Part shown: positions 1,074-59,201 of the stretch, piece after piece
Numbering within the stretch: position 1 is the stretch's first letter
How the letters are laid out: every line of letters begins with the position of its first letter
Assembly (NCBI GenBank): GCA_964187785.1
Contig: OZ076409.1
Coordinates: 39,806,001-39,870,000, forward strand
Source: Amphiscolops sp. MND2022
Lineage: Eukaryota
Reading direction: 5' to 3'
Length of the DNA: 64,000 nucleotides
Made by a program: the position numbers and the translations under genes
Notes under the pieces: generated by a model
Told to the model about the DNA's origin: nothing
Database searches by the model: none
The model's input: the letters and a program-made list of their open reading frames with translations, nothing else

Positions 1074-1102
1074 AAGAATATTCCTGCTATCGCAGAAATA
1101 AT

Positions 1103-1823: not shown

Positions 1824-2403
1824 TAACAAGCCGTAATAGTAAGCAATTTAACTTCGGCATCATACTTTGGATATAAATTGACAACGGCCCGTTACCAGAA
1901 TTTTTGAAGAGGATCAACCACTATTGATAAAACTGGCAGCCGCAAAATAATTGGTTTACGGTTGATTTAAATAATAAACTCTATTGAGCTGTATTGAGTA
2001 TACAGTTTGAAAAGAATGGACTAGTTGCATAAGATTCTAAAATCTAATATCGCAAAACCTATTACTCATAAATATTTGGATAATTTTATGATACGAAAAT
2101 TTCCGCACAAAAGCTTCTGAACAGTGCAAAAACAGCAAGTTATGATTGTTGAGAAGCGTCTCTCAACGCTTTTAAACTCAACTCTAAAAACGCTATTTCT
2201 TAAATAGTCAAATTTAATGCCAATTCTAAAGAAAACTTTTTAGGCTTCAATTTTCGGATTTTTGAACAAAATTTAGACAATTTTTTGAACATGTGTTACA
2301 AAATTTCGAGGCGGAAAATGTCCAAGTGCTAAGCAGGCGTTTCAATTAGTAGACCAAAACAGGGTCTGTAAATTCTGCCTAGCTTTCGAAATCGCAGACG
2401 AAC

Positions 2404-33350: not shown

Positions 33351-34312
33351 TATGCTCTCTGAAACAATATCTCATTTCTAGTCTTCGAAAAATGTGCAAA
33401 AGACCTTCCTCGAGTTCAAAAGATCACAAACCCCAAGTCTTCGCTATATACGGCGGTTTCAACCATCAACCGTTGATTGTATTCAAAGACCTCATACAGC
33501 GCAGTATACAGAACTAAAAAAATTGACAATGCGCCCGTGGCCCAAAAGAATTGAGCCTCTCATAAACATCGGAATACCTGAACTGAATACAAAGCATGTA
33601 GGGTTCCACGATACAATGTAATGTAAGTATTTAATATTTCCATAGTCTTCTCATTGGTAAAACATCATCTGGCTTAACGCTCAAAACCATCAGTATAGTA
33701 AGTATGCTCGAGAAGCAAAAAATACCGCATAATGAAATTAAGACTACAAATTAAGAATGACAAAAAACAAGGGGGAACCAACAGAATAGAATGTTGAAAA
33801 ATTGCTTCAGTTTGCCAAAGTTGTTGTACTTCCTGAGAACCAGTACATGTTTCAATCATCCAGCTCTCTTGGAGAAATATGACAAAACCGTGCGCGACGG
33901 ACTTTCCAAAGTGTGTAACGTGAACTTCGACGATATTTCGAGTACTCAGCTGGCTCTGCCTGCTGAGATGGGTGTTGGGGTTTTATCCGCATCATTATTA
34001 GCACTTCCCGCCTTTTTGGCCTCAGCTTTTGGTGCAAGTGACTTTCTCACGACGATTTTCTCGGAAACATTCGAAGATGTTTCGTTTACAAAAGCGCTTG
34101 AGAGGGGGTTGACTTTGACGAATGAACAGGAAAGTCCTCTCGATGGAACTCAGAAAAACTGGACACAACCTGTCTACGTCAAAACTGCCCAAGATTTGAC
34201 TTCTAGAATGGATGACAAACGTTCGAAAGATTTTAGCGCTCATCAAGGCAAATTCGGGTCACAATGGCTGGACGTCGTTCCTTGCAAGAACCTAGGCCTG
34301 AAACTTGACGAT

Positions 34313-34661
34313 GGGTGGGCGGAAGTAGGTCGAAGGAACGGGATCGAAAATCAGAGTTAGTCCTCAGGTCGACCTACCAAATTTTTGAATGGGATCGAAA
34401 CAACTCGGATCGAAATTTTTATAACGTAGTCAGATATGTTCACATACCCCTAGTGCTCTGAATGCAGGAGCGAAGCGAAGCGGAGCGACGTGCCATATGG
34501 CCATGCCTCAATGTTGCTACTTGGCGAAGGGAGCGAAGCGACCGAGCCATACAACAAATACGATAAAATTTGACAGCATTCCATTCGATCCCTGCAACTC
34601 GATCAAAAGGTTCAACCTCTTTCCTTTCGACCAGAAAAATTCGACCTACTTACAGCCACCC
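34313..34661. mobile_element. MULE-like mini-element (GGGTGG..CCACCC arms, TCGA motifs) carrying core B
   Basis: 9-bp TSD cttgacgat (34304-34312 and 34662-34670) interrupting the CRE coding frame. Confidence 0.85.
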
Positions 34662-34701
34662 CTTGACGATCAGCAACTTCGAATTTCAATTGGTTTGCGT
34701 C

Positions 34702-35206
34702 TAGGGCACGGTAAAAAGTTCGAACGCATAAGTTCGAATTTTAATTTCGAATGGACTAAGTTCGAATTTTCCAAAAACCGGAACAAGTTCGAATCACTGT
34801 GTTCGAATTTTGAACAAACCGCCGTAAGTATAAAACGTACCTCTGATAGTTCCCCAATTCATCTAGTGCCCCGCGGCCCCTTGGGGCCGCTTATGTTCCC
34901 ATCTTGCTAAGCGAGGTCGAACAGGAGCAAAGACCTAGCGGGAACGGAGATCGCGAAGCGATCGTAGTGGGAGCTGGTCTTTGTGGCGGTGAGGGCGAGC
35001 GTGCATACACCGGATTTGCCCCACATTAGAAAGGAAAAGTAAAAAAAAATTTCTGAGACATTTACGAAAGGTAATATTTTATTCTTGACACACCGGATAT
35101 GCCCGATATGAAAATTCGAACTTGGTGTCTCGAAACTATTCCTATTCGAACTTATTCCACTAGTTCACATTCGAACCTAGTAAATCAAACTTATTGCCCG
35201 AAGCCT
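34702..35206. mobile_element. hAT-like mini-element (tagggcacgg arms, ttcgaa motifs) carrying core A
   Basis: TSD (t)tgcgtct of 7-8 bp within the CRE GLRLG codons; core A at 34863-35025. Confidence 0.75.
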
Positions 35207-36102
35207 TGCGTCTCGGTGCCAACATCCACGTTGCGCATACGTGCCACTGTGTCTAAAGAGTTGAACGGGACGGTTTACACGGTCTTTCTTGCACCAATAG
35301 TGCTGGTCGCTTCTCACGTCATGCTATTCTCAATTATCTCATAAAGCAGACGTTGGGATCTCTCGACTTGCCTTCAATGCTCGAACCGCGTGGACAGTAC
35401 CGAACTGATGGCAAACACCCAGACGGTGTTACCATGATTCCTTGGGAAATGGGTAAACAGCTGGTGTGGGATGTCACCGTTGTGGATACTCTTGCACCCA
35501 GTCACCTGAAACAAGGTTCTTTATGCAACCCGGGAACCACCGCCACCGAGGCTGAAGCGCGTCAAATTGAGAACTATCGCGAATTATTAGACAGTGGATA
35601 CGTTTTTCAGCCGATGGCCTTGGAAGTGAAGGGTTCTGTAGGCGAGAGCAGTAAAATTTTCATCACGCGTCTCTGTAAGATGCTCTGTCGTTCGCACGAC
35701 GATCAACGAGCTGGCAGCTTTTTGAAGCAACGGATTTCAGTGTCTCTTCAGATCGGCAATGCGGCCTGTGTTCTAGGAACTGTGAGCGACAGAGATGCGT
35801 TCGAAGAAGTTTATTACATATAGCCTAATTTTTTTGACCTTTATATCAGCAGCTTTAAAAAAATTTCTACCGGTCGACTGCATAGTGGCTGGTTTGAGTA
35901 GTTTGTTGATATTTTTTTGTTACTGGTCTACTGGTATAGTGGCTGGTGTGGGGTTCCCTACTTTCGTTGCAGACCACGGGTGTGTGTCTTCTCCCCCCAA
36001 CCTAATGACACACATATCACTTGATTGATGACAAAAATCCATGACATCTGATAGAGGAAAATGAAAGTAAAAAAATTTACTAAAATTTACTAAAAAATTA
36101 CT

Positions 36103-36385
36103 AAAATCAAAATTTCGATCCCAGTTGTTTCGATCCCGTTCAAAAATTTGGTATCAACCTGAGGACTAACTATGATTTTCGATCCCGTTCCTTTGACCTA
36201 ATTCCGCCTACCTTCTCGGCTTGCCTTCAATGCGCGAACCGCGTGGACTGTACCGAACTGATGGCAAGCCGAGAAGGTAGGCGGAATTAGGTCAAAGGAA
36301 CGGGATCGAAAATCATAGTTAGTCCTCAGGTTGATACCAAATTTTTGAACGGGATCGAAACAACTGGGATCGAAATTTTGATTTT
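36103..36385. repeat. Perfect 123-bp inverted repeat with a 37-nt spacer
   Basis: 36103-36225 is the reverse complement of 36263-36385. Confidence 0.9.
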
Positions 36386-36782
36386 TGGGAAACAAATCGA
36401 ATTGCCGCAGATAGAATTTTTTAGAAAAGTATAAAACGTGTCTCGGATATGTCCCCATTTCCTCTAGTGCCCCGGGTCCCCTTGGGACGGCTTATGTTCC
36501 CATCTTGCTAAGCGAGGTCGAAGAGGAGCAAAGACCTAGCGGGAACGGAGATCGCGAAGCGATCGTAGTGGGAGCTGGTCTTTGCGACGGTGAGGGCGAG
36601 CGTGCATACACAGCCTATGCCCCACATTATGATAGTTAATCGACTTGAGGCAAACAAAGAACGTTTTTGACCCGAAGGCTTTGATCAAGTTCGATCGCAT
36701 TCCATTCGATCCCTGCAATTTGATCAGTAGGTTCGACCTCTGTCCTTTCGACCGGAAAAATTCGACCTAATTACAGCCGCCC
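36275..36782. mobile_element. GGGTGG-family mini-element carrying core A
   Basis: Arms match those of 34313-34661; TSD aagccgaga/aaggcgaga; core A at 36464-36626. Confidence 0.8.
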
Positions 36783-39245
36783 AAGGCGAGAGACACCAAA
36801 GTCTGCTTTATGAGAGAATCGAGAGTTGCATGACCTGAGAAGCGATCAGCATTCTTGGCGCCAAAAAGACCGTGTAAACCGTCCTGTTCGACTCTTTTAC
36901 CACAGTGGCAGGTATGCGCAACATAGATGTTGACTCCGAGACGCAAACCAATTGAAATCTGAAGCAGCTGATCATCAAGTTTCAGGCAGGGCTTCCTATT
37001 AATTGGGTCAGCAAGTATTTGGTGTTTGTTTATTTGGTTCGTTACTATTTGGGTTTGGTGTTTGGGTCTTCACCTTCACCAGTATTTGTATTTGGTATTT
37101 GTATTTCTCAAAATCCACTATTTGCATTTGGTATTTGGGTTGGGTCCGGGACATTTCGTCGACAACTATTTCGCCGACAAATTATTTGACTAGTTTCGTC
37201 GATGGGTTTGTCGAAAAATGTTTGAAGTAAAAAGATTAGAGTAACAAATTAAACAGAAAACTGCACAATACTAAAAGTGCATATAACAGCAAAGATAGAG
37301 AGTACAGTATTATCATAATTGACATATGCATGTCTTCGTTACTCATTGCAATAACCCGAAACCGTTTCTGTTACAAAAGTAACACGCATTTGGTATTTGT
37401 ATTTGGTATTTGGGCCTTGCCGAAGTGTTTGGTATTTGGTAATTGGTTTTCTTTATTTTTTTATTTGGCATTTGTATTTGGGTCTAAAACATACCCCATT
37501 ATTTGCTATTTGGGCAATTTATTGGTTGACTATTTGGAATCTCTGGTTGGTTTCAGGCCTAGGTTCTTGAAAGGAACGAGTTTCAGCCATTGAGACCCGA
37601 AATTGCCTTGATGAGCGGTAAAAACTTTCGAACGTTCGTCATCCATTGTAAAAACCAATTGTGGGCGGTTTTGACGTAGACAGGTTGTGTCCAATTCTTT
37701 TGATTTCCGTCGAGAGGATTTTCTTGTTCATTCGTCAAACTCAACCATTTCTCAAGCGCTCTTGTAAACAAAATTCTTCAAAAATTTCCGAGACAATCGT
37801 CGTGAGAAAGTCACTCGCACCAGAAACTGAGGCTAGAAAGGCGGGAAATCCTAATAATGATGGGGATGAAACCACGAGACTACCCGTCTCAGCGGGCAGA
37901 TCCAGCTGAGTACTCGAAACAACGTCGACGTTCACGTTACACACTTTGGAATACCCGTCAAGCACGGTTTTGTCATATTTTTCTGAGAGAGCTGGATGAT
38001 TGAAACATGTACTGGTTCTCAGGAAGTACAACAACTTTGGCAAACTGAAGCAATTTTTCATCATAAAAAAAACCATAGTGCGCATCCAGTTTTTCAACAA
38101 TCTCGTTAACTTTTTCCAGTTTATTTATTTTCTTTTCCAATAAATCTGCTTGTGATTTCGGGCCCAGCAGTGAACCAAGAATGATAAGTTCATCTTTCTT
38201 TGGTGTTTTGATCCCGGGGCAAAGTTGTTGTAAACATGCTAAAACTGTGGATCGTCGTTTTTCAATGATGTCACCAAGGAAAAAAATTCACATTTCGTGG
38301 ATTTTTTTGAGTCCCAACGTTTTTCCCGCTGCAACAATTTTTTTGAGATTTTTCAAAACGTTTCTGTAATCATCATTTGAATTTCCATCGTCAAGGTTCC
38401 ATAAGTTTATTTTCGACTCCAAACTGTCAATCAGATCCTAACTGGAATCCGAAAATAAAGCTGGAGACTCAAGATCTCCTTGCTGGAACACTTCACAAAA
38501 TTTGGTAACTGAATCACCGTGAAGGAGAAAACTTGGCTTACAGTACGCCAATCATGAGTACTTATAAACTTCATTGTGTAGTTCAAAACGTTTCTTTTAG
38601 CATGGATTGTCGGTTTATCGATTTGAAAGCGTTCTCAAATTCACTTTTCAAAATTACGTTTTTTTTGGGCTGGGAGCTTTCTATCAAACAAGGGAAAACA
38701 TGTGAGGCCAATTTATACCCCTTTGGTGCCTGCAACTATGTCGATTCCCATATCTTGCTTGACGTCACTCGAAGACCTTGTATCCGCCACATTTTGCGGA
38801 CAACCGGCGGAATGTATTGCCTACAGCGATAGGACGAAGTCTTCCATTGGGCTTTTTTAGTGCAATTAGTTTCGCACCAATGAAGTGCGGCCGAAGTTCA
38901 GAAGGTACTTTTCCTTCGAGAATGACATTCACAAGATTTGTTACGGCTCTGAGAAAAATAAGTCCGGTTTGCACGTTCAACTTGGTAGTCAAATCTTTCA
39001 AACTTTGTGGCGAAAAGCTATCCAACACTGCACTAGAGCCGTTGGGGAAGGACTTGACAGCCTTGTGGACGAAAAACTCCAAGGTTGAAAAACAATCGAT
39101 ATCTGTGGGATTCGGAACAGAGCAAGTTTCCCTCTGCGGATGTTTCAGCTTGAGGGCAGCGTAGTTCTCGACCGTGAAATCCGCAATCTTGTCGTCGCCT
39201 AATGCCATTCGGATTCCGGCCTTAAAATTACCTTCGTCCGAATAC
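36783..39245 (-). mobile_element. Degenerate CRE-clade element including the RT domain
   Basis: Peptides LRPIAVGNTFRRL, QQGD, WNLDDG, PKLLYFLRT; homologous to 33788-35400. Confidence 0.85.
36987..37549. mobile_element. hAT-like non-autonomous element with (GTATTTG)n arrays, inserted in the CRE element
   Basis: cagggcttcc ... ggaatctctg; 8-bp TSD gtttcagg (4 extra bases on the right). Contains a truncated gggtccgggacatttcg arm at ~37142. Confidence 0.55.
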
Positions 39246-39675
39246 GCTTGGTAATAATTACCCCGAGTAGCGACCTCTGACGTTTATTTCGTCCAAGTGA
39301 ATTTTGCAGAAAACAACTTAGAGAAGAGAGCATTATGCAACACAAGGCAACATTTGACGGGGTTGAAACATAACCAACATTTGACGGTTGAAACATAACC
39401 AATTGCAGGAATACCACATTTGGGTGTGTTTCAATCTCCCCAAAAAAACAATCACAATGGTGAAGCAATCCGTTTATGAAAAAAAACCTTGAATTAATAA
39501 AATGAAATATAAAAGGAATTATCTCACCGGGTTGTGATGGTTCTTTCAGCCCAGGTGCAGCGACAAACCAACAAAACAGCGTCAAAGATATGGTCCAGTT
39601 GTCTCAAATTCGAATGATTGCCATCTCTGAAGCTATTCAACAAGCCCATCACAACAATTTGGCTAACAACTGCGG

Positions 39676-40980
39676 TTAAAGAGTTGAACGAGACGGTTTA
39701 CACGTTCTCTTGCATCAAGAGAACTGTTCGCTTCTCACGTCATGCTTTTCTGAATTCACTCATAAAGCAGACGTTGGGATTTCTCGCCTTGCCTTCAATG
39801 CTCGACCCGCGTGAAATCCACCGAACTGATGGCAGACGCCCAGGGGATGTTACAATCAATCCTTGGGAAATGGGCAAACAGCTGGCGTTGGATGACAAAG
39901 TTTTGGATGCCCTCGCAATCTTCATCAAGCTGAAACAAGGCTCCCCAGGCAACCCCAGAACAACAGCCACCGAGGCTGAAGCGCAAAAAATGTGAGACGT
40001 AACGCGAATTAATAGTCAATGGATACATTTTTCAACCGGTGCCCATGAAAGTGCACGGTTCTTCAGGCGAGAGCAGTGAAATTGAGCGTCTCTGTGAAAT
40101 GCTGTGATTGGCACGACAATCAACGAGCTGGCAGCTTTTTGAAGCAACGGAACTCAATGTCTCTTCAGCTTGACAAGGCGGCGTGTGTTCTAGTAACTTT
40201 GAACGACACAGATGCGTTTGAGGAAATTTATTACATTTGTGTTTTTTTGTACACCAATATATCATTACAGCTTTTTCTGAAACATGTTTCTACCAGTTGA
40301 CTGGGAAAGTAGCTGGTATGAGTAGTTTGTTGATTGGTTTTTGCTGTTAAGGACTTACTGGAATAGTGACTATTTAAGGCTTTCCTTTTTTCGATGCAAA
40401 CCACGGATGTGTGTCTTCTCTCTCCAACATGACGCACATGTCACTAATTAGGTCCAGCTTGTGGAAATCCAGTTTGTAGATTTCTTCACACAAGATCTTG
40501 AGGGCTGCATTGCCTGAGATCTACCGCCTAAGATCTAAAGGAATAACAAAACTGAAAACGCGGGGTTCATCCGGTGTATGCACGCTCGCCCTCACTGTCA
40601 CAAAGAGCAGCTACCACTACTATCGCCTCACGATCTCCGCTCCCTCAGCAAAATTGGAACATATGCGGCCCCCAAGTGCCGCGGGGCACTAGAGGAGTTG
40701 GGGACATTTCCGAGGCACGTTTCATACTTTACGTCAATTCTGCATTATTGGTTGGTTTCATTGTTTTTCTTCTTGAATTGATGATTTCTACAAACTGGTA
40801 TTCTACAGACTAGACCTTATTCAAAATATTACCATGGTCCTGTTTTGTAGAAACAGATTCCACAAACTGGCCTCACTTTTTTACAAACTGGACTCTACAA
40901 TTTGGTTTTTAACAAACTGGTTCATACCTATGGCACTGGACTGATGATGAAGATCCATGATATCTGATGGTGGAAATAAC
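39676..40980 (+). mobile_element. 3' fragment of the CRE-clade element (REL domain plus 3' UTR)
   Basis: Homologous to 35255-36060; interrupted by a core-A element. Confidence 0.8.
40446..40928. mobile_element. Mini-element with ctacaaactgg-motif arms carrying a diverged core A (reverse orientation)
   Basis: Degenerate 9-bp TSD catgtcact/tatggcact in the CRE 3' UTR; core at ~40570-40692. Confidence 0.65.
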
Positions 40981-42429: not shown

Positions 42430-45400
42430 AAAAAAATGGAAATCGGAGCAGTTTAATAGTTCCGACAAGTCCCTCATCAAAAGAACGTTGCGGGAAAGAA
42501 TTTTCAGCCGTGAGTCATTTGATGACGCAAGTAGTGCAATCGCTGAACGCGAGGCAAACAGAGGAACCTCGAAGCTTCTCATAGCCGAATGGATGTTGAA
42601 ATAGTCAAAAACAATCATCGTTGAGACTGGATGACAAGACTTCCAATTAGAAACCCTCCTCGTAGATGCCAAACAGGTTTTGGACGAAGGTATTCTTTTG
42701 GCCATCAGTGAGCATTTGTTGGTGCAAGCAGAGGAGATGTTGGAATACACAATGTCGGAAGCACTAAAAGAGCATAGAATTTTAGCAACCGCATCAAGCA
42801 AGCAAACGAAGAGTAAGAGTGTGCAGTTTGAACGTCTCGAAGAGAGTGCAGATGTTACCAAAGTACTGCAGTACGTACAGCAAGGAAAATTATTCCGAGT
42901 GACATTTTTCCATGCCGGTAATCTACTCCTTGAAGAAGGAAACAAATGATTTGAAATGGAAAAATGTCATGCATTTGTGAATGAGCAACAATTGACACTG
43001 CAAGAAGGATTGATTGAAAAGTCCATTCATTAAATTTATGCTACGGTGAATATATCAACAGCTATGCAATGAAATGCATTGTCAAAAGTGAAAAACAAGT
43101 CATGAAAGCACGTTTTGGAAGGAAAGCTGATTTCGACTTCAAGGCAAGCCTTGTTGAAGTAGCTATCTTGAGAGATAGCAATGTATGAAACTATTGGAGC
43201 GGTAAAGGAACCTCTAGGCTGATCGCAGTGGCGCACGCTAACGGCACTGATAAATTGGATTTGTGCATTGGCCACATCAGACACTCGACGGAAAGAATTT
43301 GCAAGATTGAACCTAAGCCAAACCTGGTACATGGAATGATGAAAAGAGCTCAAATGAACAAACATTGAATACAAGATGAAAATTTTAGGCTAAGAGCAAA
43401 GAGTAGCAAAGGGACTGAGTTGAAAACACAAAGCCACAACAAGTTGCACTGGGCTTGAGGACTCTGAAAAGAGAAGGAAGGACTTCAGTTACCGTAATAA
43501 TGATACTTTTTTCTGTTTCTTGTTTGTTTATTGTTTTGAGGGACGCTTTCAAGTGTCACGCATCCAAAAAAGAATTATGGAAGGATTAGAGAACGAACTC
43601 GCGTTGACATTTCTTCTCAGTGGTCAGTCAACTTCGATCAGAATATCGGTAGCACAGCAAAAATTGAGGAACTGGTTGAAGACTTTTTCGACTTACCTGG
43701 AAATTGACTCTTTGGATGTTGACGTAAATATAAAGCTGTGTTAATTGAGCTGCAAAATTTTTGTAAAGTACTTTTTAAAGGTTTAAAAGAAGAGCAAGTG
43801 ATTGAACTCAATGAAGGTCGGACGTTGATGTTGAAGTTTCTGATAATTGTCAAAACTATGACTTGAAGTGAGAAAACTGTTTTTGTTTGAATCTTTGGTT
43901 GTCTTAAGTCAATATGTGGGAAAAAAATCTATTGTGAGCGATCTAGACTTCAAACTGAAAAAAATTTTGCACTAGATCACCGACAGTTGATGTGCAATCC
44001 ACAACAATGTGCTAAGTCAAACAGATTTTGAATTCGAGATCAGTGATTGTCAGTAATGATCCTGAAGGGGACAAGACGTTTCGGCGACAGACGTGTCATT
44101 GGACGTTTCGGCGACAAACTGTCGCCGAAACGTCTCTAAACAGGGTGGGAGGAAAACTGTCCCCGAAATGTTTCTTCAAAGGATGGGCCGAAAAAATATA
44201 TGAAGATTACGAGACTTGGCTTTTTTTTTATATATTTTATCACGAGACTTGGCTTTATATACATCATATTGAAGATATCATTTAAAAAGTACAAAACGTG
44301 CCTCGGATAGGTCCATATATACTCTGCAACTGCTCTTTGGATCTCGTGGCATGAATTAACACTGGCGGTGGGTGTTTGGATCGAATGAATTTGCGCGAAT
44401 GTGCAATCTGTCACTGAGATCGAAGTAAAATGGTGAAAGAAAATGAGATCGAATCAATGTTCTCAAATACCTAGCATTTTTAAAACAACAATGTTTTTCG
44501 ACGTCGGATATGCCCCCATTTCCTCTAGTGCCCCGCGGCCCCTTGGGGCCGCTTATGTTCCCATCTTGCTAAGCGATGTCAAACAGGAGCAAAGACCTAG
44601 CGGGAACGGAGATCGCGAAGCGATCGTAGTGGGAGCTGGTCTTTGCAACGGTGAGGGCGAACGTGCATACACAACATATGCCCCACATTTTAGGATTTTT
44701 GCTTTCAGAACGAACGTTTTTGGTTTTTTAGAGGACGTTTCGGCGACACCCTTGTCGCCGAAACCTCCGCCGCCATATTGTCGCCGAAACGTCTCTCACC
44801 GAAACGTCCAGATTCCATCCTGAAGATTTGGAAGCCTTCACTTCATCTCCTTTTCTGCTAGGGCGCGCCAGTCCGGCAATTCCATTCAATCCTGACGCTC
44901 AGTGATATACGGATCTTCGAATAGTTGTCACAGTATCACTAGGAATGAGACATCTAAATGGATCATAGAAGGAGTTTGAAAGTTGGAATTCAAGGATGTG
45001 GTTTGGATAGTTGATGAGAATGTGGCAGGAGCACACTACAAGATGGGTGGAGTGTTGGAAGTCTATCATAGAAGCAAAGAGCGTGTAAGATCAGTGCTGG
45101 TGAAAACGGAAGATGGAAAACTCAAAAGACCAGTATAATACTGGCACTCTCGTTTTACGAATTAATTCTTCGGGAGAAAGACAGGGCCGGCAATGTTGGA
45201 GCCAGTCAATCGCAAGTTCAGAAACTTGAAGTCTAACGTGACTGATGAAACCTATAACTCAAACACCTTGAAAGGTTGTTAGGATTTAGGTTGCAAAATG
45301 AAAGTTTGGCAGAAATAGTGTTGGCGGGACAAAACCCCACCCCTCTTTTTGAGAATCATTCGTACACCTACCCTGAAATTTGTTAAGCATATTCAAGAGA

Positions 45401-47250: not shown

Positions 47251-47282
47251 ATGGCCTTTGAAACTGGATCGAAGAAGGGACA

Positions 47283-48187
47283 CCCGGGTTTCCCTCCCAT
47301 ACAAAAACAGGTCAATCATACACTGCCATCATACTCACAGTATGATTCCAGGCTGATCATACTCTGGACCATAATGGTTTATGGTTCCAGGCTGACCATA
47401 CTCTGGACATATATGGTCCAGTCTATGATCAGCCTGGAACCATAAAAAAGCAAAGTTTATGGTTCCAGCCTGACCATATTCTGGGCCATATATGGTTCAG
47501 TCTATGATCAGCCTGGAACCATAAACCTTTATGGCCCAGAGTATGGTCAGCCTGGAGCCATAAAAAGAAATTTAGGATAATGTAGTCAATTAACACGTAC
47601 ACTGATGAAATTACAAGATATTCCTCAACCAAAGGTCCAATACAATCACCAAATTGAAAACAAGGTAGCAATTATCAATTTTGGGCATCTTTTGCTGAAT
47701 TATTGGTAATTTTTCTCGAAATAATCGAAAATCATACTGCAAAGTGGGTACTGCTATAACAAAAGAGTTAGTTATTAACTAATGAGTGGCTGAGAACAAA
47801 TTGAGTTACTATAGTTTGTCTTTAACTCCGCTTAGAGCTTAACGGAGTTCTGACCTGCAATGTATCGTTCGCAGATACAAAAGGTCGAATGTGGCTCCAT
47901 TGCTCTCAGCCTACAAAGCTGGCTGTTCTCAATATTTGAAAATTTTTGTTTGAAAATTAAAAAAATATATATTAAAAAAATTTATGATTCCAGGCTGACC
48001 ATACTCTGAACCATATATGATTCCAGGCCGATCATACTCTGGACCATATATGATTCCAGGCCGATCATACTCTGGACCATATATGATCCCAGGCCGATCA
48101 TAGCAAGATCATAGTAAGGAAATTTGTATTAGTTCTATGGTGCCATAATATGGTCAGATTATGATCGGCCTGGTCGGGAAACCCGGG
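47283..48187. mobile_element. CMC/EnSpm-like non-autonomous element with subterminal ~33-bp tandem repeats
   Basis: TIR cccgggtttccc/gggaaacccggg with 2-bp TSD CA; repeat unit atgattccaggc(t/c)gatcatactctggaccatat in both orientations. Confidence 0.7.
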
Positions 48188-48749
48188 CAGAAATTTCTAA
48201 GAGTGAATGACTTTAGGAATTCTTAATGATGCTTAAAAGGATTGGACCCTTTCCGCTGGCACCCTTTCTGTTTGAAGATAACAATGCATATTTTGGTGCA
48301 TTTGTTTTAGGAGTGGTGAGAGGTTCCACATTCGGGTTTTGTTTTTGATTAGCCGCCAAGGCTGAAACTCTGCAAAGTTTAACGACTTTTGAGAATCTTT
48401 TCTAATTGATGATCTGAAGTACAAATGAGAAAACCAAAGGTTGTTTTGGATGCCGTCTTTCAGGGATTCTCTCATTTGTAGGACTATAATGCACACGATC
48501 CAATTCTTGAACTCAGTTCAGTGAAATTTGAGGATCTCGAAGAATCGATTATTTGCGGTACAACTGAGACAGCAAAACTTTTCTGATTGTCGTCTTTCAG
48601 GAACTTTTCATTTGTGGGCTTATATTGAGTAAAAGTCGATGATTCAAACTGGATTAGCGAACAAAGTACTCAACGCTCGTTTTAATTTGGTGAACCACTT
48701 CAGAAAAATTGTGTTATCCGTTCATGGAAAGACATCAAGAACTTCAAGA

Positions 48750-51250
48750 GCTTGGCTTATTTGAAACAAAATGGTTAACTCCCATCTGATCTAAACAAAG
48801 TCTTGGACGTGACCCTCATGAAAAATCAAAAGTTCTAAAGGACACTTTCTTCAGTGGGAGGCACCTGGAAGAAGAATTTTTTGACAATACTTTCTGTGAC
48901 TCTATGGACAAAAATCTGCGAATGATAAATGACCTGGAAAAAAAACGAAACCTATGAAAACGAATGGTATAATCGTGAAATTACTCTGGACGAGCTTGAT
49001 GGAGTCCTTGGTAATTTACGGAACGCATCCAGCTCTTTGGATGACGACAATCTTCACCCAAAAATGATAGTATTTTCCGGTCTATATTTCCGCACGGTTC
49101 GTATCACTTTGTTTAACTGGTGTCTTGTCACATCTGAATGGCCGTGGCCTGAAGCCCGTGGTCTCTTCATGGAGAAACCCTCGAAACCGGACTACATGGA
49201 CCCAACTGTCTACAGACCTCTGTCAATTACTAGCCGTATTGGAAAAATTTTTGAAAGTATTCTAAACAACTGTCTAACGGATTTCTTGATGAAAAATCAA
49301 CTGATCGACCACGAACAAGAAGGTTTGCTCGCGAACAGAAACACCACGAGATCATTATTCTGAATAAAAATTGAACACGAAAATCTGAAAAGGCGGAAAA
49401 AAGTTGCGACGTGATAAACTTAAGTTTGCAAAAAGCTTTCGACAGTGAGTGGCAAAACTGACTCCTAGCAAAGCTATGGACTGCTGGTATTCGGGCTGTT
49501 TCTTCCGTATTATTGCGACATACCTTAAGAGTGGACTTCAATGAACAAAAATTGATGGCTGGCACAGCCAAGTTTTCACCCCAAAACAAGGTCTTCCTAA
49601 AGGGAGTGTGATTTCACCAACACTAATCAGTTTTTACATAGCCGACATGCTCAAAACAAGCTATGGAGTGAAGTTCAAGTATGCTGACGACTCTCAGTTC
49701 CTTGTCACGGCAGCTAACGAGGAAAGTAGTTCAACACATCATTCAAAGGACCCTAACAACTGTACAGCAATGGTACCGCCCGTGGCGCCTGGAAAAGACC
49801 GATGTTGTACTCATTAACGGTATAGCGCCATGCGTTCAAACCTTCTACCTCGGCAATCAGAAATGTAAAGTTAAGAATAACACCAAAATTCTTGGAATAT
49901 TGTTGATGAAAAAATGACTTTCAGACAACATACCCAATCTGGTATAGGTAGGGGCAAAAACAAATGGAAAGAGCATCGACTGTCTTGCACGAAAAAATGG
50001 AGTTTATCTAGGCGAACTTTAGTTAGTTTGTACAAACCACTAATCCTCCCTCAAGTTCTTTATTGCGCTCCTGTATGGACACTGATTAACTACAACAGAC
50101 TTAACAGTTTCCAAGGCTTCATATTAAGCGACATTATGGACACAACTCAGAACCCGCACTCCAAAGCTGCGGAAGTTTTTCTCGCTACTACCAATCGACA
50201 TTATATGAAAATATACCCGTCAAGTTCATGACTAAAGCACTCACATCAACAGACAAACTGCAACGATTGATACTGGAGAACCAGCAACGCCTCAACTTTG
50301 TAACAATCCACTCTAACTGTTTGAAGCAGTTTTACAACAATAGGATTCTCGAACTGACTGACCTTCTGAATTACACAGGCACAACCCGTCGATTTGATAT
50401 CTTTAGACGATGGAATGACCGAAGAGGAACAAAATGGACTTCGATACTCACCTTAACATTCTTGTCCCTAGAAGAAAAATGGAGTCAATGTTAGGGTGGG
50501 GTATTTTGGATCGGATTTTTATGTGAGCGAAAAGCGAGATCGAAAACGTATCGAAAGGTTTGAGATCGAATTGTTACGTTTTTGCTATTATTTTGCTCCT
50601 GCAAAGCGTTCAAATTATTTGAGGTACTTTTCTGCACCTAATATGGAGTCATATACGGTGTATGCACGCTCGCCCTCACCGTTGCAAAGACCAGCTCCCA
50701 CTACGATCGCGTCGCGATCTCCGTTCCCGCTAGGTCTTTGCTCCTGTTCGACCTCGCTTAGCAAGATGGGAACATAAGCGGCCCCAAGGTGCCGCGGGGC
50801 ACTAGAGGAAATGGGGGCATATCCGACGCCGAAAAACATTGTTGTTTGAGAACGCTAGGTATTTGAAAACATTGAGTCGATCTCATTTTCTTTCACCATT
50901 TTACTTCGATCTCAGTGACAGATTGCATAATCGCGCAAACTCATTCGATCCAAACACCCACCGCCAGTGTTAATTCATGCCACGAGATCCAAAGAGCAGT
51001 TGCAGATAGAATTGGAACTTTTACTTGATACCTGTCCTACAATAAACAACTTTGCCTACAACAGGAGCCTAACAGCCAGTCCGCTCTGCTCTTGCGGAAG
51101 AAATGAAGTGACTGTGATATACTTTCTTTTTTACTGTCAGCTTTATGAAAACAGAGAATTGTCTACGGAAAAACTCCACATTCACGACTGGGAAGACTAG
51201 TCGACACTTGGTAATTGATATACTTCTAGTGGGCAATTTGCACTCGAAGG
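48750..51250 (+). mobile_element. Degenerate APE-type LINE ORF2 (RT and C-terminal CCHC region)
   Basis: YRPLSITSRIGKIFESIL, KAFD, KYADD, CSCG..E...FLFYC; related to the LINE at 53.9-58.5 kb. Confidence 0.8.
50494..50963. mobile_element. Mini-element with gggtggggtattttggatcg arms carrying core A (reverse orientation), inserted in the LINE
   Basis: Degenerate TSD tcaatgtta/ccagtgtta; core at ~50657-50805. Confidence 0.75.
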
Positions 51251-51889: not shown

Positions 51890-52620
51890 TCGGAACTAAT
51901 TGCGCTTTTCTCAAACAGGAATTAGAACTAATTTGTTTCAGGAATTGGAACTAAAAACAGGGATTAGAACTAATTCGTTACGGGAGTTGGATTTAAAAAA
52001 GTGGGAATAAGACCTTGAATGTGGAATGAGGCCCAAGATGAGAACGAAATTTTATCTAAAGTAATAATATCTAAAGTTTTTCGAAGTATCAAACCTCTGA
52101 TTTTTCCCCATTACTAGTGTCCCGCTGGTTCTTGGGCAGGGGTTGGCAATCAATTATAGGGTATTCAATTAATTGCAATTATTGGTAGCAATTAATTGAT
52201 CGGTATCGTTTTTCAATATCAATTTTTGATTGACGTGTGGCAATTATTGCAAATGTTTAAATATACGTTTAAAAAATGTTTAAAAAATTGGAAGACAATT
52301 TGTCGAAAATACTTTTACGAGAAAAGTACGGATAGTGATGATTGGATGTGTGGCTGTGGAAAATAGTTGAAGAAGAGGCACGAGACTGGTTGGACTAACC
52401 TCTATGCCCATCCAAGCGTTCAACATGATGTTCCTTTGAGGCCGCTTATGTTCTCATCTTGCTAAGCGAATTCGAACAGGAGCAAAGACCTAGCGGGAAC
52501 GGAGATCGTGAAGCGATCGTAGTTGGAGCTGATCTTTGCGACGGTGAGGGCAACGTGCATACACCGAATATGCCACACAGAAGAAAGTACTGATCTTTTT
52601 GTGAGACATTTACGAAAGTT
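51890..52620. mobile_element. Element with a gaactaa-motif arm carrying core A split by a caggggttggc hAT-like fragment
   Basis: ctagtgtcccgc at 52114; the rest of the core at ~52440-52578. Confidence 0.55.
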
Positions 52621-52753
52621 AAACTTATTTTCTTGAATGAAATGATTCGAGATCCGACTATTTTATAAAATCAATGGGAGGAAAAATATAATGATTGTAT
52701 CAATTTTATGTTGTTCAATTGTGTTACCTTATATTCGTACTACTTTCATGTTC

Positions 52754-53095: not shown

Positions 53096-53695
53096 TTCAT
53101 GTTCCACGTTTCCAATTTGCGTTTTGTACCATGTTTTTATCGGATTCCGGACGTTTCGGCAAAAGACGCTTCGGCAAAAACATGGCGTCGGACGTTTCGG
53201 CAAAAAAATATGCCGAAACGTCTCAGGCTAAAAGCATTTGCCGAGACGTTTCGTATGATATGTGGGGCATATCCGGTGTATGCACGCTCTCCCTCACCGT
53301 CGCAAAGACCTGCTCCCACTATGATCGCTTCGCGATCTCCGTTCCCGCTAGTTTTTGCTCCTGTTCGACCTCGCTTAGCAAGATGGGAATATAAGCGGCC
53401 CCAAGGGGATGCGGGGCACTAGAGGAAATGGGGACATATCCGAGGCACCTTTTATGCTTCGCATCATTCCTACATTATTGGTCTCATCGTTTTTCTTGGG
53501 TGGGCGGAAATAGGTCGAAGGAACGGATCGAAAATCAGAGTTAGTCCTTAGGTCGACATACCAAATTTTTGAATGGGATCGAAACAACTCGGATCGAAAT
53601 TTTTATAACGTAGTCAGAAATGTTCACATACCCCTAGTGCCCTGAATGCAGGAGCGAAGCGAAGCGGAGCGACGTGCCATATGGCCATGCCTCAA

Positions 53696-53895
53696 NNNNN
53701 NNNNNNNNNNNNNNNNNNNNNNNNNNNNNNNNNNNNNNNNNNNNNNNNNNNNNNNNNNNNNNNNNNNNNNNNNNNNNNNNNNNNNNNNNNNNNNNNNNNN
53801 NNNNNNNNNNNNNNNNNNNNNNNNNNNNNNNNNNNNNNNNNNNNNNNNNNNNNNNNNNNNNNNNNNNNNNNNNNNNNNNNNNNNNNNNNNNNNNN
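53696..53895. other. Assembly gap (200 N)
   Basis: Run of N. Confidence 1.
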
Positions 53896-56800
53896 ATGAA
53901 TAGCGGGAGCTGTGAGTTTAACATGGATTCGGCGAGGTTTCCAAAGTTGAATTTACTCCGGATTTCTTCGTATCTGGGACATTCTAATATGAAGTGGTGA
54001 ACAGATTCTACGTTTGATCCACATGGACAGCGTGGGGATTCGGTTAACCAAACTTTGTATAGAAAGCCGTTGAGAGGGCAGTGTCCCGTTAGGAGTCGGA
54101 AAGTGTTGACTTCATTTTCTCTAGAGTGTGTCGTGAAGAGGGAGCGCGGGGGGATGTGGAAAATTCTTCTGAGGTGCGAGTCTTGGTACAGCCAGTAATT
54201 TACCCACAGATGGTGTTCATATCTATTGATATCGGATTTTCTGTATTGGAACGTATGTACGTCAATCTCGTCCAGTTCGAGGCGGTGGCTTGATCGCAGA
54301 TTGTTTTTGAAGGCTAGGAAGCGTTTGAGTATAGTGACATCATTGTTAATTTTAGGGTTGGCTGTGTTGGGATCGAAGATGGTATGTTTCAGATTATCTC
54401 CTTTGACGTAGAGTTTGGCCAAGAATTTTGCGGTTAACAGTTCGATTTGGATTTTAATGGTTTTGATGTCGGTGAGGAGCTCAAGGTCACAATTTGCCGG
54501 GTTGTAGAAGGATCCAGTTGCTGAGTATAACCATGCTCTTTGCAGAGTGATCAGAGGGTCGAGATTGCAATCGGACAGGGCTGAGACTCCGTATAGGATT
54601 TTTGGTAGTGTGAATAATTTGTAGATTTTGAGGATTGATCTTGCGGTGAGTCCGGAGTATGGGCTGCAGAACTCTTTTATCCTGTTGAGATCAGCCCATC
54701 CTTTGCCCGCTGCGGATGTCACTTGTTTCTTGGTGTTGCCTACAATAGTTCCCACTATGATGATATCGTCTTTTAGTACCTTAGTTCCTTTGACTAGGAA
54801 AGTTTCTTGTTCCTTCTTTTCGGAGGGAATGAAGTTAACTGGGAGGAATGCTGTTTTGGATGTGTTAATATTGATCTGGTTCTGATGACACCAGGCAAAG
54901 AGTTTTTCGAGAGTACTTGATGAGTAGCTCATGACTTCGGTTGTATTTTGTGCGGTTAGTAAGATTGAGGTGTCATCTGCGTATTTGTAGACTGAGGCTC
55001 GAGGTTCATTGTCGAGAAGGTCTGTAATGAAGATTATGAAAAACAAAGGCGAGAGGATGCTGCCTTGAGGTAGTCCTATTTGACAGGGTAATTCTTCGGA
55101 GATGAAGTCGTCAAGGATGATCTGTATCTTCCGGGTGCTGAGGAGATTATTGATAATGCCAAGAAGATCTCCCTTTATGCCGGCGAGATGAAGTTTAGTT
55201 ATAAGAATGTTAGTATTTACGCTGTCGAAAGCTTTTTCAAGGTCTATGCTTATCAACATTCCCTTGAGGTTGCTAGTCGTTACCTCTCTCAAGTCAGTGA
55301 AAATTTTGTATAGGAGTCTGGAGGTGCCACGTCCTTTTCTGAAACCTTCCTGATTGTCATCCAAGTAATTATTTATCGAGATTATCGATAGGACTTTCTG
55401 GCTAAGGATCGATTCAAGGATTTTCCCTACAAGGGTGATGGGGCGGTAGCTCTTTGGTTCAAGGTAGTCTTTCTTTCCGCTCTTAGGAATGAATATCACT
55501 TTGCCTTTTTTCCAGACCCAGTGTTGTTTTTGGATGCAGCAGTTGAACAGATGAGTCAGAATAAGTGAGAGACTGGGACCAGAATAGCGAAGCATTTTTG
55601 GGTGGAAACCATCAATATCAAGAGATTTGTTGTTGCTTTTCACTTTCCGTAGTGCTTCTTCAACGTCTGAATGCGAGATTAAACATGCTCCCATCGCGTG
55701 GGAGTTTTCTGTCAGTGCACGGCTGGCCGATAGATAGTTCTCTATATTGCTTTGGGTGGAAAAGTTCTCTGATGCTAGGTGTTCGCCTGTAAAGAAGGAC
55801 TTTCGCAGAAGGTCACTTTTCTCTTGGGGGTTAAAAAGAATCTCGTTTTGATCGTTTTTGAGGGGGCCCATTTTCGATTTGTCGCGGTCGAGAGGTGTAG
55901 TTTTGTATCTTTTCCAGAAGTTAGTTGTGTCTGCTTTGTTAAGATGATCGAGGTAGCGTTGCAGCCAAGAGTTATGAGCTGAAATTATCTCCTCTTTGAA
56001 AGCATCTTTGCTTTTCAAAAGTTCCTCTAAGTTTTCTTGATTATTGCGTTTTCTGTAGGCAATTTTATTTCGTCGAAGAGTTAGAGAGAATTCTGATAGC
56101 TTGCTGTTCCAAAAAGGCTTGGAGTAATTTGACAGTAATTTAACTGGAATAGTAGTGTCGACTGTTCGTATAAGAGCTGATTTTGTGATATCCCAGATTG
56201 TCTCAGGGTCGTCACTTTCGAGGATTCCGTCGAGTTCGGCGGTCAGGTTATCTTCTAGAGCAGTTTTCCAGACGGTCCAGTCGGCGTTGTCGAAGTCTTT
56301 CTTAATTTGTCTAACAGTTTGGCATTTAGAGAAGAGTCTCCAAGACCAGATGATTGGATAATGCCCCCTGCGGGGTGCGCCTGAGAAAAGTTCAGCTCTG
56401 GCCGTTGACCGATACAAATGTTGGCCCATTCGGGTGACTAATGTTCAGATCGTGGTCCTGGAGCAAATTGAAGAGCATGAGTCCGTGTTTGTTCGTCGAA
56501 TGATCAGACCAGGCAGGGTGTCTTGCATTGAAGTCTCCCAGGATTAATACACCGTCTAAAGAGTTACTGCTGACAAATTCCCGACATTTAGACAGGATAC
56601 TATCAAGCATTTTCAATTGTTCTGGATTATCTGGGGGAATGTAAATGCTTGCTACTAGTAATCGAGTATTCTTGTCGCTCGCTAGAACGAATACTGCGTC
56701 GATCTTGTCATTTCAAGGGACGTAACTTCAGCTGAGCTAAGGTTGTCGTGTATTGAGAGGCTCACTCCCCGCCCGACTTTGGATGCGAAGGTTGAGTAGG

Positions 56801-58516
56801 TTTTGAAGTGATTTTTACTCAGTAACCTGGTTGTTTCGCAGATGGCCAGTATGTCAATGTTGTTTTCGAAAACGTATTGTTCGATTGCAAGCTTCGAGTG
56901 CGTGGAAAGGCCGTTTATGTTGATGAGCATAGATTTGATGAAGTTATTTGTGCTAGTCATGATTAGTGTTATTCAACCATTGCGGGATCTCTAGCTGGCA
57001 GAGTTTGAACAGTTTGACTAGAGTTTTCCTATATACAGGGCAGTTGCTACTGTAGCTGACGTGACAATGGTTGCAATTTGAGCATTTAATATCTTTGCTG
57101 TCGTCACAATTGTCGCTAGAGTGTCCATTTTCACCGCAGCGTGAGCATTTCGTTTCTCTGTTGCACAATTTGGCACTATGTCTAAATTTTTGACAGTTGA
57201 AACAACGGATAGCTCGGGGTTTCTCAAAATATTCCTCTGCAGAATAGTGTCGGTTTCCCAGGAAAATTCCGTCTTTGAGGGATTAACTGAACGAGGGTTT
57301 ATCTGGCATGGTGATAAAGGCTGTTTTGAGGACGGTGCCATCTTTTTTTACGAATCGTTGGAAGGAGCAGTTTGGATAGTCGTTTTGCAATAAAGCGATG
57401 ATTCTTTCATCTGTTCCTTCTTCGTCGCAATCTTTGATGATGACACGGTTTGCAATTGTTTTGGAGCGGCGAGCTCGTGTGTCCTCTCCAAGGCATTTGG
57501 ATTTCCAGCTATCGATCATTGTTTGAGCGGTCGCCGCATCTTCCAGATGAAGAAAGACTGATCCGTTCGCGAGTGCTAATGCCTGTTTTATTTTAACTCT
57601 GGGGTAATGGTTCGAGATTTCCCTTTTGATGGCCGAGCTTGACTTAACAGCTTCTTTCATTGTAACGATCTCGATTATGACAATGTGGTTGTTGTCAGCC
57701 GATTTGATATTGACTCTGGGACTCTCTGTGGGGCTGGGCTTTGGGGGTGGTGGCCTGACAAGAGGTTTGGCTTTGGGTTGGGTTACCTGTTGGCTAATGT
57801 GCGAAGGAATGTTTTCTCGACTTGATTCCAGTGATTTGAGAGTGGGGACAACCGTTGAAGGGATTTTACTGACTTCAGCTTTGATTTCGGCGGTCACTTT
57901 GCTTTGAGTAGCTTGTTGAGATCTGACAGTTTCGATTTTGCCTTCGATGTGCTCGGCGTTGGGTTTGGATTGACTTTTCAGCGATGGTAGGCAGGTTTTG
58001 CAATACCAATAGCAGGATTCGTACTTTCCCAGCACAGTAACGTGTTCGGATTTCAATTCGGTGCATTTTGTGTGGAACCTTTTTTCGCACATCTCACAGT
58101 TTATGCTCCTCAAACGCTTTGCTACACTTTTTGCACTTGGACATTATTAAACTTACTGTTTTTCTAACGGAAGCCAGCGGAATCGGAACCCCGACAGGCC
58201 TCAGTCAGAAATTAACAGAAAGTGTGTCTACTTTGACCGTTTTGCGCCCTCTGGACAATTTACTGTAGTATACTACAGACAAAAAAGGCACACGACTCGT
58301 GATACCTAAGGTCTGGAAAAGACTATGGGTTTCTTGAAAGCCAACTTAGGTACTGTCTCTTGCGGTCTTCGGGCAAACTCGTCCACTTTCTGCCTCTTTC
58401 TGGAAATCTTTAGATAAGAGGCAACCAACACCAACAACAAACAACAGCTGAAGCTATTTAATAAGTTTATCACAACAATTAGGCTGGGGACAAACAATCA
58501 CAAACAATCACAACAA
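53896..58516 (-). mobile_element. Near full-length APE-type LINE: ORF1 (PHD plus three CCHC knuckles, ~58144-56953) and ORF2 (APE, RT, CCHC; 56960 to the gap), with frameshifts
   Basis: ININGL, ICET, GDFNARH, YRPITL, IDLEKAFDSV, GLPQGSILSP, YADD, CPCG..ESVHHFILEC. No RNase H motif seen; clade not determined. Confidence 0.92.
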
Positions 58517-58750
58517 TTCGATCAAAAGGTTCGACCTCTGTCCTTTCTACCAGAAAAGTTCGACCCATTTACAGCCACCCGTTTTTCTTCAATTCCAGAA
58601 TTCTACAAACTGGTATTCTACAAGCTGGACCTAACCAGTTTGTAGAAAACCAAAAACAAAACCAAGATAATACGGGACGTTTCGGCATGAAAAATTTGCC
58701 GAAACGTCTCGAGTTTTTTTTTTGCCGAAACGTCCTGTTCCCTTTTTATC

Positions 58751-59201
58751 GGCTTCCGGTAATAAAGTCGAATTTTGACTCGTCGAATGAATAACGTCGA
58801 ATGAATAGCGTAGAATTTAGTCAAACAGAAAATTTTAGGTTGAAAAAATATTTGAGGTTCTTTTCCCCACCTAGTATGGGGTCATATACGGTGTATGCAC
58901 GCTCGCCCTCACCGTCGCAAAGGCCAGCTTCCACTACGATCGCTTCGCGATCTCCGTTCCCGCTGGGTCTTTGGTCCTGTTCGTTCTCGCTTAGCAAGAT
59001 GGGGACATAAGCGGCCCCAACGGGCCGCGGGGCACTAGAGGAAATGGGGCATATCCGACGGCCAAAACATTGTTTGACCATTTTACATTTGCAATGACAT
59101 CGACGCAATTACTTCGACATAAGCCCGTCGACGATGGTACTTCGACGCTAGTTAAACGGTTCAAATTCGACTTTAGTCGTTCGACTTTATTGCTGGACAC
59201 T
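58751..59201. mobile_element. Mini-element with ggcttccggtaataaagtcgaa arms carrying core A (reverse orientation)
   Basis: 22-bp imperfect TIR flanked by (c/g)tttttatc; core at ~58889-59038. Confidence 0.75.

What the first reader, a model, noticed from the sequence alone, without database searches (positions are those of the whole stretch)
44323..44690. Core-linked capture: arm plus 43 bp of LINE flank from the 50.5-kb element copied into the 44-kb element
44323-44670 is a close inverted match to 50657-51006. It includes core A, the whole right arm of element 50494-50963 and 43 bp of the LINE that flanks it (44323-44365 matches 50964-51006). The recipient keeps its own arms and TSD. Its native pre-core flank (aaaacgtgcctcggataggtcc) breaks about 10 nt before where CTAG would be. 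The LINE is continuous at 50-51 kb, so that locus, or a copy of it, is the donor. This looks like a snapshot of how cores and arms get swapped, by copying that runs out through the CTAG side.
Basis: partly seen in the sequence, partly recalled or inferred. Interest (0 to 1): 0.7.

Follow-up and report, generated by a model that had tools for sequence, protein, structure and literature searches.

The report
Transposon copied its neighbour's arm
A small jumping-DNA element in an animal genome copied about 200 bases from a neighbour 6 kb away, most likely by ordinary break repair guided by a short sequence the two share, which shows one way such elements can trade arms.

Summary
44323-44671 matches 50659-51006 inverted (16 differences in 349 nt), including 43 of 43 nt of LINE flank. 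The LINE is colinear across the 50.5-kb element, so transfer ran 50→44 kb. Two corrections. First, only about 200 nt beyond CTAG (44323-44524) is demonstrably foreign; copying of the core itself rests on one shared change. Second, the native flank resumes in ungapped register with CTAG through a 3-nt overlap (AGA), so no length was lost. Best reading: a break near CTAG was repaired by one-sided invasion of the nearby homologous core, copying 200 nt and returning by microhomology. This resembles single-copy Pack-TIR gap filling, except that a shared internal module guides entry. A second chimera (53 kb) has the same polarity, but 2 of 2 proves nothing, and a core-free arm-plus-flank fold-back exists at 36.1 kb. 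The stranger feature is the module: 12 copies of two related hairpin/CTAG-ended cores with direct-repeat flanks, central in at least six TIR arm types. Rolling-circle read-through is not excluded. No genome, reads or outside copies were available.

The parts
44068..44816 (.). Recipient non-autonomous TIR element with GG ends and a perfect 9-bp TSD (44059-44067 / 44817-44825); the sequence to its right is a decayed DUF5641 (BEL/Pao-type, family link recalled) LTR-retrotransposon remnant
   Evidence: TSD 9 of 9; arm repeats; DUF5641 at 44980-45135, E 4e-6
44525..44671 (-). Core A of the recipient (147 nt, TGTATG ... hairpin ... CTAG); native or converted, not resolved
   Evidence: 3' hairpin folds at z = -2.9
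44672..44688 (-). Native pre-core flank (type I, not donor type); left copy of the module's direct repeat
   Evidence: 6 of 17 differences from the donor; flank table
44503..44524 (-). Captured: donor-type (type II) segment just after CTAG
   Evidence: 0 of 22 differences from 50806-50827
44366..44502 (-). Captured: whole right arm of the 50.5-kb element, to its terminus
   Evidence: 10 of 137 differences from 50828-50963
44323..44365 (-). Captured: donor's right TSD copy (44357-44365) plus 34 nt of LINE; last 3 nt (44323-44325) are the microhomology with the native junction
   Evidence: 43 of 43 identical to 50964-51006; register
44287..44322 (-). Native type I post-CTAG flank, resuming in register; 44315-44321 is either decayed native sequence or same-length filler
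   Evidence: matches the 34.8, 36.4, 40.7 and 53.4-kb flanks at 86-89%; alignment
50494..50963 (.). Donor TIR element with different arms; degenerate 9-bp TSD (50485-50493 / 50964-50972, 7 of 9)
50659..50805 (+). Core A of the donor, the homology that guides entry
50806..51006 (+). Donor tract beyond CTAG that was copied (post segment, arm, TSD, LINE)
48811..51150 (+). Decayed LINE (RT-bearing) interrupted by the donor element and colinear across it
   Evidence: tblastn; RVT_1 hits
53142..58741 (+). Second, more diverged one-sided chimera: 44-kb-type arms at both ends, core A (53277-53422), then a 40-kb-type arm (53461-53497 and 58590-58632); interrupted by a nested core-B element (53498-58580) that holds an assembly gap and a LINE
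   Evidence: 29/38 and 35/42 to the 40-kb element, 0 of 200 shuffles; no significant match to the 44-kb native flank; TSDs

Best explanation
A non-reciprocal, homology-primed templated insertion (one-sided gap filling). SHOWN: about 200 nt that follow CTAG in the 50.5-kb element now follow CTAG in the 44-kb element, 6.3 kb away and inverted. The entry junction lies somewhere in the roughly 160 nt the two share (core plus first 11 post nt). The return junction is a 3-nt overlap in register with the recipient's own CTAG. The recipient kept its arms and TSD. INFERRED: a break or collapsed fork at or just past the recipient's CTAG left core homology on one end only. That 3' end invaded the nearby core, was extended through the foreign arm into the LINE, disengaged where the LINE resembles the native junction, and rejoined the other end by microhomology, perhaps with a short templated filler. 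Outward-through-CTAG direction follows from where the break fell, and a break at the other edge should capture the other side. Because unrelated TIR elements share the core, this repair can hand an arm from one family to another.
For: Direction from LINE colinearity. Mosaic flanks: type I before the core, type II after CTAG, type I again after the insert. Microhomology of 3 nt is reached by 17 of 1000 donor exits at the fixed register. The donor exit also matches the native junction at 12 of 21 to 15 of 30 nt, ranking 2-44 of 1000 positions depending on the window chosen (8 windows tried). A 7-nt match to the possible filler lies at 44256, about 60 nt away; that 7-mer occurs 6 times in the window. 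In animals, 56.9% of 281 Pack-TIRs lie within 15 kb of their donor, 67.6% have breakpoint microhomology (median 2 bp), and gaps are small (median 4.6% of the element) (PMC8277862, passages). No DNA-transposase, Helitron or Rep Pfam hit among 94 frames of 85 aa or more ending beyond position 16000. Other local template-switch products exist.
Against: The return point falls at CTAG itself, which break repair does not require. If the position-25 change is inherited, at least 123 nt of core were also replaced, which needs a long conversion tract or a core-sized gap. If the register is left free, 22% of exits have 3 nt of microhomology, so the junction statistics are modest and post hoc. Nothing shows that the capture happened in place rather than before the recipient's insertion here. 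All of it rests on one window.
Confidence: 0.65

Rival explanations
1. The core is a non-autonomous rolling-circle (HUH-mobilised) module. A nick-primed copy ran past the hairpin/CTAG stop of the 50.5-kb copy (read-through) and was delivered into, or replaced, the module of the 44-kb element, so polarity is built in.
For: A hairpin lies about 10 nt before CTAG in the intact core A copies aligned, strongly folding in the 44-kb copy. The return junction is in register with CTAG. Both one-sided chimeras are on the CTAG side. Direct repeats flank core A (16 of 19 nt, 0 of 200 shuffles) and, weakly, core B (11 of 13, 5 of 200). Cores A and B are unrelated internally by local alignment yet share a 39-nt end around CTAG (29 of 39). 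One arm family carries either core in the same orientation. Helitron read-through is demonstrated, about 11.7% of events, and new ends need no palindrome (PMC4778049). Replitron-1 copies carry downstream flank of the parent (PMC10288648).
Against: Ends are G|TGTATG and CTAG|A, not A|TC and CTRR|T. No subterminal inverted repeat in 4 of 4 modules tested. No empty pre|post site in the window. No Rep or RepHel hit. Conservation runs about 38 nt past CTAG, so CTAG is not the visible boundary. The hairpin is weak in two of three copies folded (z -0.9).
Confidence: 0.2
2. The composite formed elsewhere or earlier, for example by fork stalling and template switching followed by transposition, or from another copy of an element-plus-LINE segment. 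It then inserted here, so closeness to the 50.5-kb locus is incidental or a local hop.
For: The tract is 4.6% diverged while the recipient's TSD is perfect and the donor's is 7 of 9. The recipient keeps both termini, so it could move as a unit. A transposition-coupled route is proposed for multicopy Pack-TIRs (PMC8277862).
Against: A perfect 9-mer is still the likely outcome at this divergence, and 2 or more mismatches in 9 has probability 0.06. A donor 6.3 kb away is unlikely by chance. Multicopy Pack-TIRs were distal to their parents in that paper.
Confidence: 0.11
3. Assembly mis-join between two inverted copies of the core.
For: The window has a gap (about 53.7-53.9 kb) and a 5.6-kb tandem duplicate at 99.7%. 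No reads could be checked.
Against: The tracts differ at 16 of 349 positions spread over core and arm. The sequence returns to native flank after 43 nt with microhomology. Both loci have intact outer flanks and TSDs.
Confidence: 0.03

Closest known systems
Single-copy Pack-TIRs made by transposition-independent gap filling (Tan et al. 2021, PMC8277862)
   Same: TIR element with an internal piece copied from a locus under 15 kb away; small or no gap; short microhomology at a breakpoint; internal break; termini and TSD kept.
   Different: Entry is through about 160 nt of shared internal homology, not microhomology. Most of the filler is another element's arm. That pipeline excluded donors with TEs within 100 bp (section 14), so this class was not sampled there.
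One-sided invasion / SDSA with end-joining return, and polymerase-theta templated insertions (as summarised in PMC9299229 passages; detail from own knowledge)
   Same: One homologous junction, one microhomology junction, possible short filler.
   Different: Inferred from a fossil junction in a dispersed repeat; no enzyme is identified.
Helitron (HLE1) 3' read-through transduction (Helraiser, PMC4778049)
   Same: Hairpin then CTAG; capture of sequence downstream of CTAG.
   Different: No 5' TC, no A|T target; the product sits at a homologous module position inside another element; no RepHel partner seen.
Replitrons (Craig 2023, PMC10288648)
   Same: Short direct repeats at or near both ends; a hairpin near one end; one end can carry parental downstream flank.
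   Different: Reported from plants, algae and protists. No Rep found here. The module always sits inside TIR elements, and its mobility is not shown.
Mutator-like non-autonomous elements (9-bp TSD, GG ends, long sub-repeated TIRs; hallmarks recalled)
   Same: 9-bp TSD at 8-9 of 9 in 8 of 12 module-bearing elements, 7 of 9 in 2, unresolved in 2.
   Different: No transposase seen. Unrelated arm types share a central module, the reverse of the usual pattern of shared ends and variable middles.

Membership tests
Single-copy Pack-TIR (gap filling) | Captured segment over 100 bp, at least 90% identical to a parent, inside one TIR element with both termini | tested here: met
   about 200 nt at 95% (10 differences in 202), TSD 9 of 9
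Single-copy Pack-TIR (gap filling) | Donor nearby in cis; microhomology at a breakpoint; small gap | tested here: met
   6281 nt apart; 3-nt overlap, no net loss
Single-copy Pack-TIR (gap filling) | Parent not associated with a TE (operational criterion of the published set) | tested here: not met
   the parent is a TIR element arm plus LINE; criterion read
Single-copy Pack-TIR (gap filling) | Single copy genome-wide; uncaptured element at the orthologous site | not testable with these tools
   no genome held; no runs listed; unique within the window only
Helitron HLE1 | Hairpin about 10 nt before a 3' CTRR | tested here: met
   fold is significant in 1 of 3 copies folded
Helitron HLE1 | 5' TC start and insertion between A and T | tested here: not met
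   G before TGTATG and A after CTAG in 7 of 7 tabulated core A copies; criteria from PMC11417382
Helitron HLE1 | RepHel-encoding partner with the same ends | not testable with these tools
   none among 94 frames scanned; rest of the genome unavailable
Helentron / HINE (HLE2) | 11-15 bp subterminal inverted repeats | tested here: not met
   none of 8 nt exact, or 9 nt or more with one mismatch, between the ends in 4 of 4 modules; criteria from PMC4067079
Helentron / HINE (HLE2) | Insertion in TT, no TSD | tested here: inconclusive
   the type I post flank ends in a T-rich stretch, but module boundaries cannot be fixed without empty sites
Replitron | Short direct repeats at or near both termini | tested here: met
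   core A 16 of 19 nt (0 of 200 shuffles); core B 11 of 13 (5 of 200)
Replitron | Y1 Rep HUH transposase; copy-and-paste insertion with empty sites | not testable with these tools
   no coding partner or empty site in the window
Mutator-like MITE (host elements) | 9-bp TSD and TIRs | tested here: met
   boundaries were chosen by an offset search, which gave 5-6 of 9 for two elements without a clear TSD
Mutator-like MITE (host elements) | MULE transposase partner with matching TIRs | not testable with these tools
   no hit; genome unavailable
Structured RNA gene / SINE core | Rfam or tRNA match, or covariation | tested here: not met
   no Rfam hit on the cores in 43-54 kb; no tRNA; 1 of 46 predicted pairs compensatory among 7 copies (little power at this identity)

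The most novel reading that the evidence does not exclude
The roughly 200-nt hairpin/CTAG module with direct-repeat ends is an undescribed HUH-type mobile unit that homes to the centre of unrelated TIR transposons in this animal. Nicking at CTAG drives polar copying, so cores and arms are shuffled between transposon families, and the 44-kb element is a frozen read-through product.
Probability: 0.2. Interest if true: 0.8.

Novelty: new variant of a known kind. Interest (0 to 1): 0.4.

Why it matters
As a single event it is a clean example of known repair chemistry. Its value is that it gives a concrete, directional route by which TIR elements of different families exchange arms through a shared internal module, a class that the one animal-wide Pack-TIR survey filtered out by design. 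It also makes a testable question of the odder observation that at least six arm types carry one of two related central modules. Counting junction positions and sides genome-wide would separate passive homology-guided repair from a dedicated nicking system. The second outcome would be a new kind of parasite-of-transposons, and similar core-in-unrelated-arms layouts were noted, unchecked, in bacterial windows of this scan.

Tried and rejected
Whole-genome search: no genome is held. Sequencing runs: none was listed for 43-52 kb, which is no evidence either way, so junction support by reads is open. Outside copies of the core: 39 metagenome matches to an 18-mer, 1 prokaryote-genome match and 1 + 0 viral matches did not extend beyond 37 nt and are treated as chance. 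Earlier scan notes: nothing by sequence for either core or by place or by two word searches. Reciprocal inversion between the two cores: rejected, because both loci keep their own outer flanks and TSDs. Alternative transposition: rejected, because junctions are not at TIR ends. Reverse direction (44→50 kb): rejected by LINE colinearity. CpG hot-spot explanation for the shared position-25 change: not supported, since window CpG o/e is 0.96 and CpG sites change at 0.040 vs 0.027, although that dinucleotide is altered in 4 of 8 copies. Hairpin terminator at the donor exit: none (z = 0). A TTA-type TSD for the 40-kb element was considered by eye and left unresolved. Literature: searches returned no paper describing a shared central core across TIR families in animals; the library lacks most subscription papers. 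A homologue search with one LINE fragment gave unnamed close relatives and did not fix the host lineage.

Full report
Setting. The window is from an animal-type genome: it holds a KDM5-like gene and a kinase (Pfam), a helicase that I read as ASCC3-like (name recalled), and decayed LINEs. The lineage was not established. No genome is held and no sequencing run was listed, so all structural evidence comes from this window.

The observation. 44323-44694 matches 51006-50637 at 94%. Split by segment, the recipient differs from the donor at 0 of 43 nt in the flank, 10 of 137 in the arm, 0 of 22 just after CTAG, 5 of 147 in the core and 6 of 17 before the core. The recipient 44068-44816 has a perfect 9-bp TSD. 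The donor 50494-50963 has a 7-of-9 TSD whose right copy is the first 9 of the 43 captured bases. A LINE protein from 54-56 kb aligns on both sides of the donor element with the expected spacing, so the flank belongs at 51 kb and transfer ran towards 44 kb. Arm and flank have no third copy in the window.

What was copied. Core A has eight copies in the window, with two flank types. Type I occurs at 34.9, 36.5, 40.6 and 53.3 kb; type II at 50.7 and 58.9 kb. Read in core orientation, the 44-kb element is type I before the core, type II after CTAG, then donor arm and LINE, then type I again. That mosaic independently confirms an insertion into a native type I module. The demonstrably foreign part is 44323-44524. 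Whether the core came too is open. It is as far from the donor core (5 of 147) as the 34.9-kb core is. The two do share the only derived change found among 10 pairs of the five gap-free cores (position 25; the three cores with gaps were left out of that count). With them included, other pairs also share single changes. I take this as suggestive only.

The return junction. Ungapped, however, the flank is in exact register: the last three donor bases equal the AG of CTAG plus the next A, a native G follows, then 7 nt with 4 mismatches, then native sequence. A 3-nt overlap at that fixed register is reached by 17 of 1000 donor positions, but by 22% if the register is free. The donor also resembles the native junction past the exit (12 of 21 to 15 of 30 nt; rank 2 to 44 of 1000 over eight windows). 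The mismatched stretch has a 7-nt match about 60 nt away and could be templated filler. These figures are post hoc and modest. They do say that the join lies at or within about 10 nt of CTAG with no net loss.

Context. Twelve modules lie between 26 and 59 kb: eight core A (one split by an insert) and four core B (one cut by the gap). Eight host elements have 9-bp TSDs at 8-9 of 9, two at 7 of 9, and two are unresolved. In the seven simple elements the core is central, with 104-211 nt on each side. At least six arm types do not match each other. Cores A and B share only a 39-nt end around CTAG (29 of 39), and each is flanked by a short direct repeat. One arm family carries core B at 34.5 and 53.6 kb and core A at 36.5 kb in the same orientation, with extra sequence on both sides. 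The element at 53142-58741 has 44-kb-type arms at both ends but a 40-kb-type arm after CTAG: a second one-sided chimera, same side, different return point. It could also be a nested insertion that lost one arm. Against a core-specific process, 36103-36225 is a perfect 123-nt inverted copy of an arm plus LINE flank around a 37-nt spacer, with no core involved.

Mechanism. The best-supported account (0.65) is one-sided, homology-primed gap filling. A break near CTAG leaves core homology on one end, which invades the inverted core 6.3 kb away, copies 200 nt and returns by microhomology. The sequence mosaic, direction and junction are shown. The break, the invasion and in-place timing are inferred. 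CTAG lies about 20 nt from the edge of donor-recipient homology, so this route needs no special nick, and polarity would reflect break position. The rival (0.2) is rolling-circle read-through by an HUH enzyme. It is favoured by the hairpin/CTAG end, the direct repeats, the register at CTAG and 2 of 2 polarity. It is disfavoured by non-Helitron ends, no subterminal inverted repeats, no empty sites and no partner among 94 frames (frames under 85 aa, those ending before 16 kb and those with gap residues were not scanned there). Formation elsewhere followed by transposition (0.11) and mis-assembly (0.03) are less likely.

Comparison with the known. It works like a single-copy Pack-TIR: Tan et al. 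report donors within 15 kb in 56.9% of 281 cases, microhomology in 67.6% and small internal gaps (PMC8277862; abstract, passages and methods section 14 seen). It fails their operational criterion of a TE-free parent, so it is a variant that their set did not sample. It resembles Helitron read-through (PMC4778049; passages) and Replitron fuzzy ends (PMC10288648; passages and the first part of section 9), but is not filed under either. HLE1 and HLE2 criteria were taken from passages of PMC11417382 and PMC4067079. One-sided invasion and templated filler come from passages of PMC9299229. No supplements were read; Repbase-type catalogues and those supplements may already list such elements. Four searches found no description of a shared central core across animal TIR families, in a library that lacks most subscription papers. 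Five earlier scan notes describe a similar layout in bacteria; they are unchecked leads, not support.

Verdict. Real, correctly located and correctly directed. The mechanism is most likely known repair acting on an unusual substrate. Polarity and any special role of CTAG are untested. New variant of a known kind; interest 0.4, rising to about 0.8 if genome-wide junctions prove fixed and polar.

Noticed in passing
window 26234-59201: Twelve copies of two related modules (core A 147 nt, core B about 105 nt), TGTATG-to-CTAG with direct-repeat flanks, central in at least six TIR arm types, most with 9-bp TSDs. Probably more interesting than the single capture.
   Followed up: partly
window 34313-34661, 36276-36782, 53498-58580: One arm family carries core B (34.5, 53.6 kb) or core A (36.5 kb) in the same orientation; the core A copy has about 50 and 60 extra nt on the two sides.
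   Followed up: partly
window 36103-36385: Perfect 123-nt inverted duplication of an arm plus LINE flank around a 37-nt spacer, switching at a short natural inverted repeat; a short tandem A-rich repeat sits at the outer junction. A recent fold-back product without a core.
   Followed up: yes
window 53142-59201: Nest of elements: a chimeric core A element, a core B element inside it holding an assembly gap and a roughly 4.6-kb LINE, and a further core A element (58751-59201) inserted in tandem so that three near-identical 9-bp target copies are present.
   Followed up: partly
window 36407-36418 and 51002-51013: The 12-mer spanning the donor exit site also occurs, inverted relative to the core, in the extra post-CTAG sequence of the 36.5-kb element; these are its only two + strand copies in the window. 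Noticed by eye; may be chance.
   Followed up: partly
window 35094-35104: A second copy of the pre-core direct repeat followed by the first three core bases lies about 80 nt upstream of the 34.9-kb core, like an aborted or duplicated start.
   Followed up: no
window 52070-52640: Core A copy split inside its 3' hairpin by a 292-nt insert (52141-52432); its arms and TSD were not found.
   Followed up: partly
window 44140-44286: Even without the 201-nt insert the CTAG side of the 44-kb element is about 255 nt against 145 nt on the other side, and holds an 18-nt direct repeat; possibly an older addition.
   Followed up: no
window 33791-40445: Two or more copies of a non-LTR retrotransposon lie in pieces of opposite orientation, several breaks coinciding with TIR elements.
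   Followed up: no
window 141-11372 and 19868-20220: 5.6-kb tandem duplicate at 99.7% covering helicase exons (recent duplication or assembly redundancy), and a 175-nt tandem duplicate at 98%.
   Followed up: no
window 47277-48190: Fold-back element built of 33-39-nt sub-repeats, with neither core A nor core B.
   Followed up: no
window 500-26000 and 62886-63383: A separate, abundant family of A-rich palindromic repeats around the helicase gene, unrelated by BLAST to the core-bearing elements.
   Followed up: no
window 28102-33371 (-): KDM5-like gene with a 1435-codon uninterrupted frame (ARID, JmjC, PLU-1, PHD).
   Followed up: no
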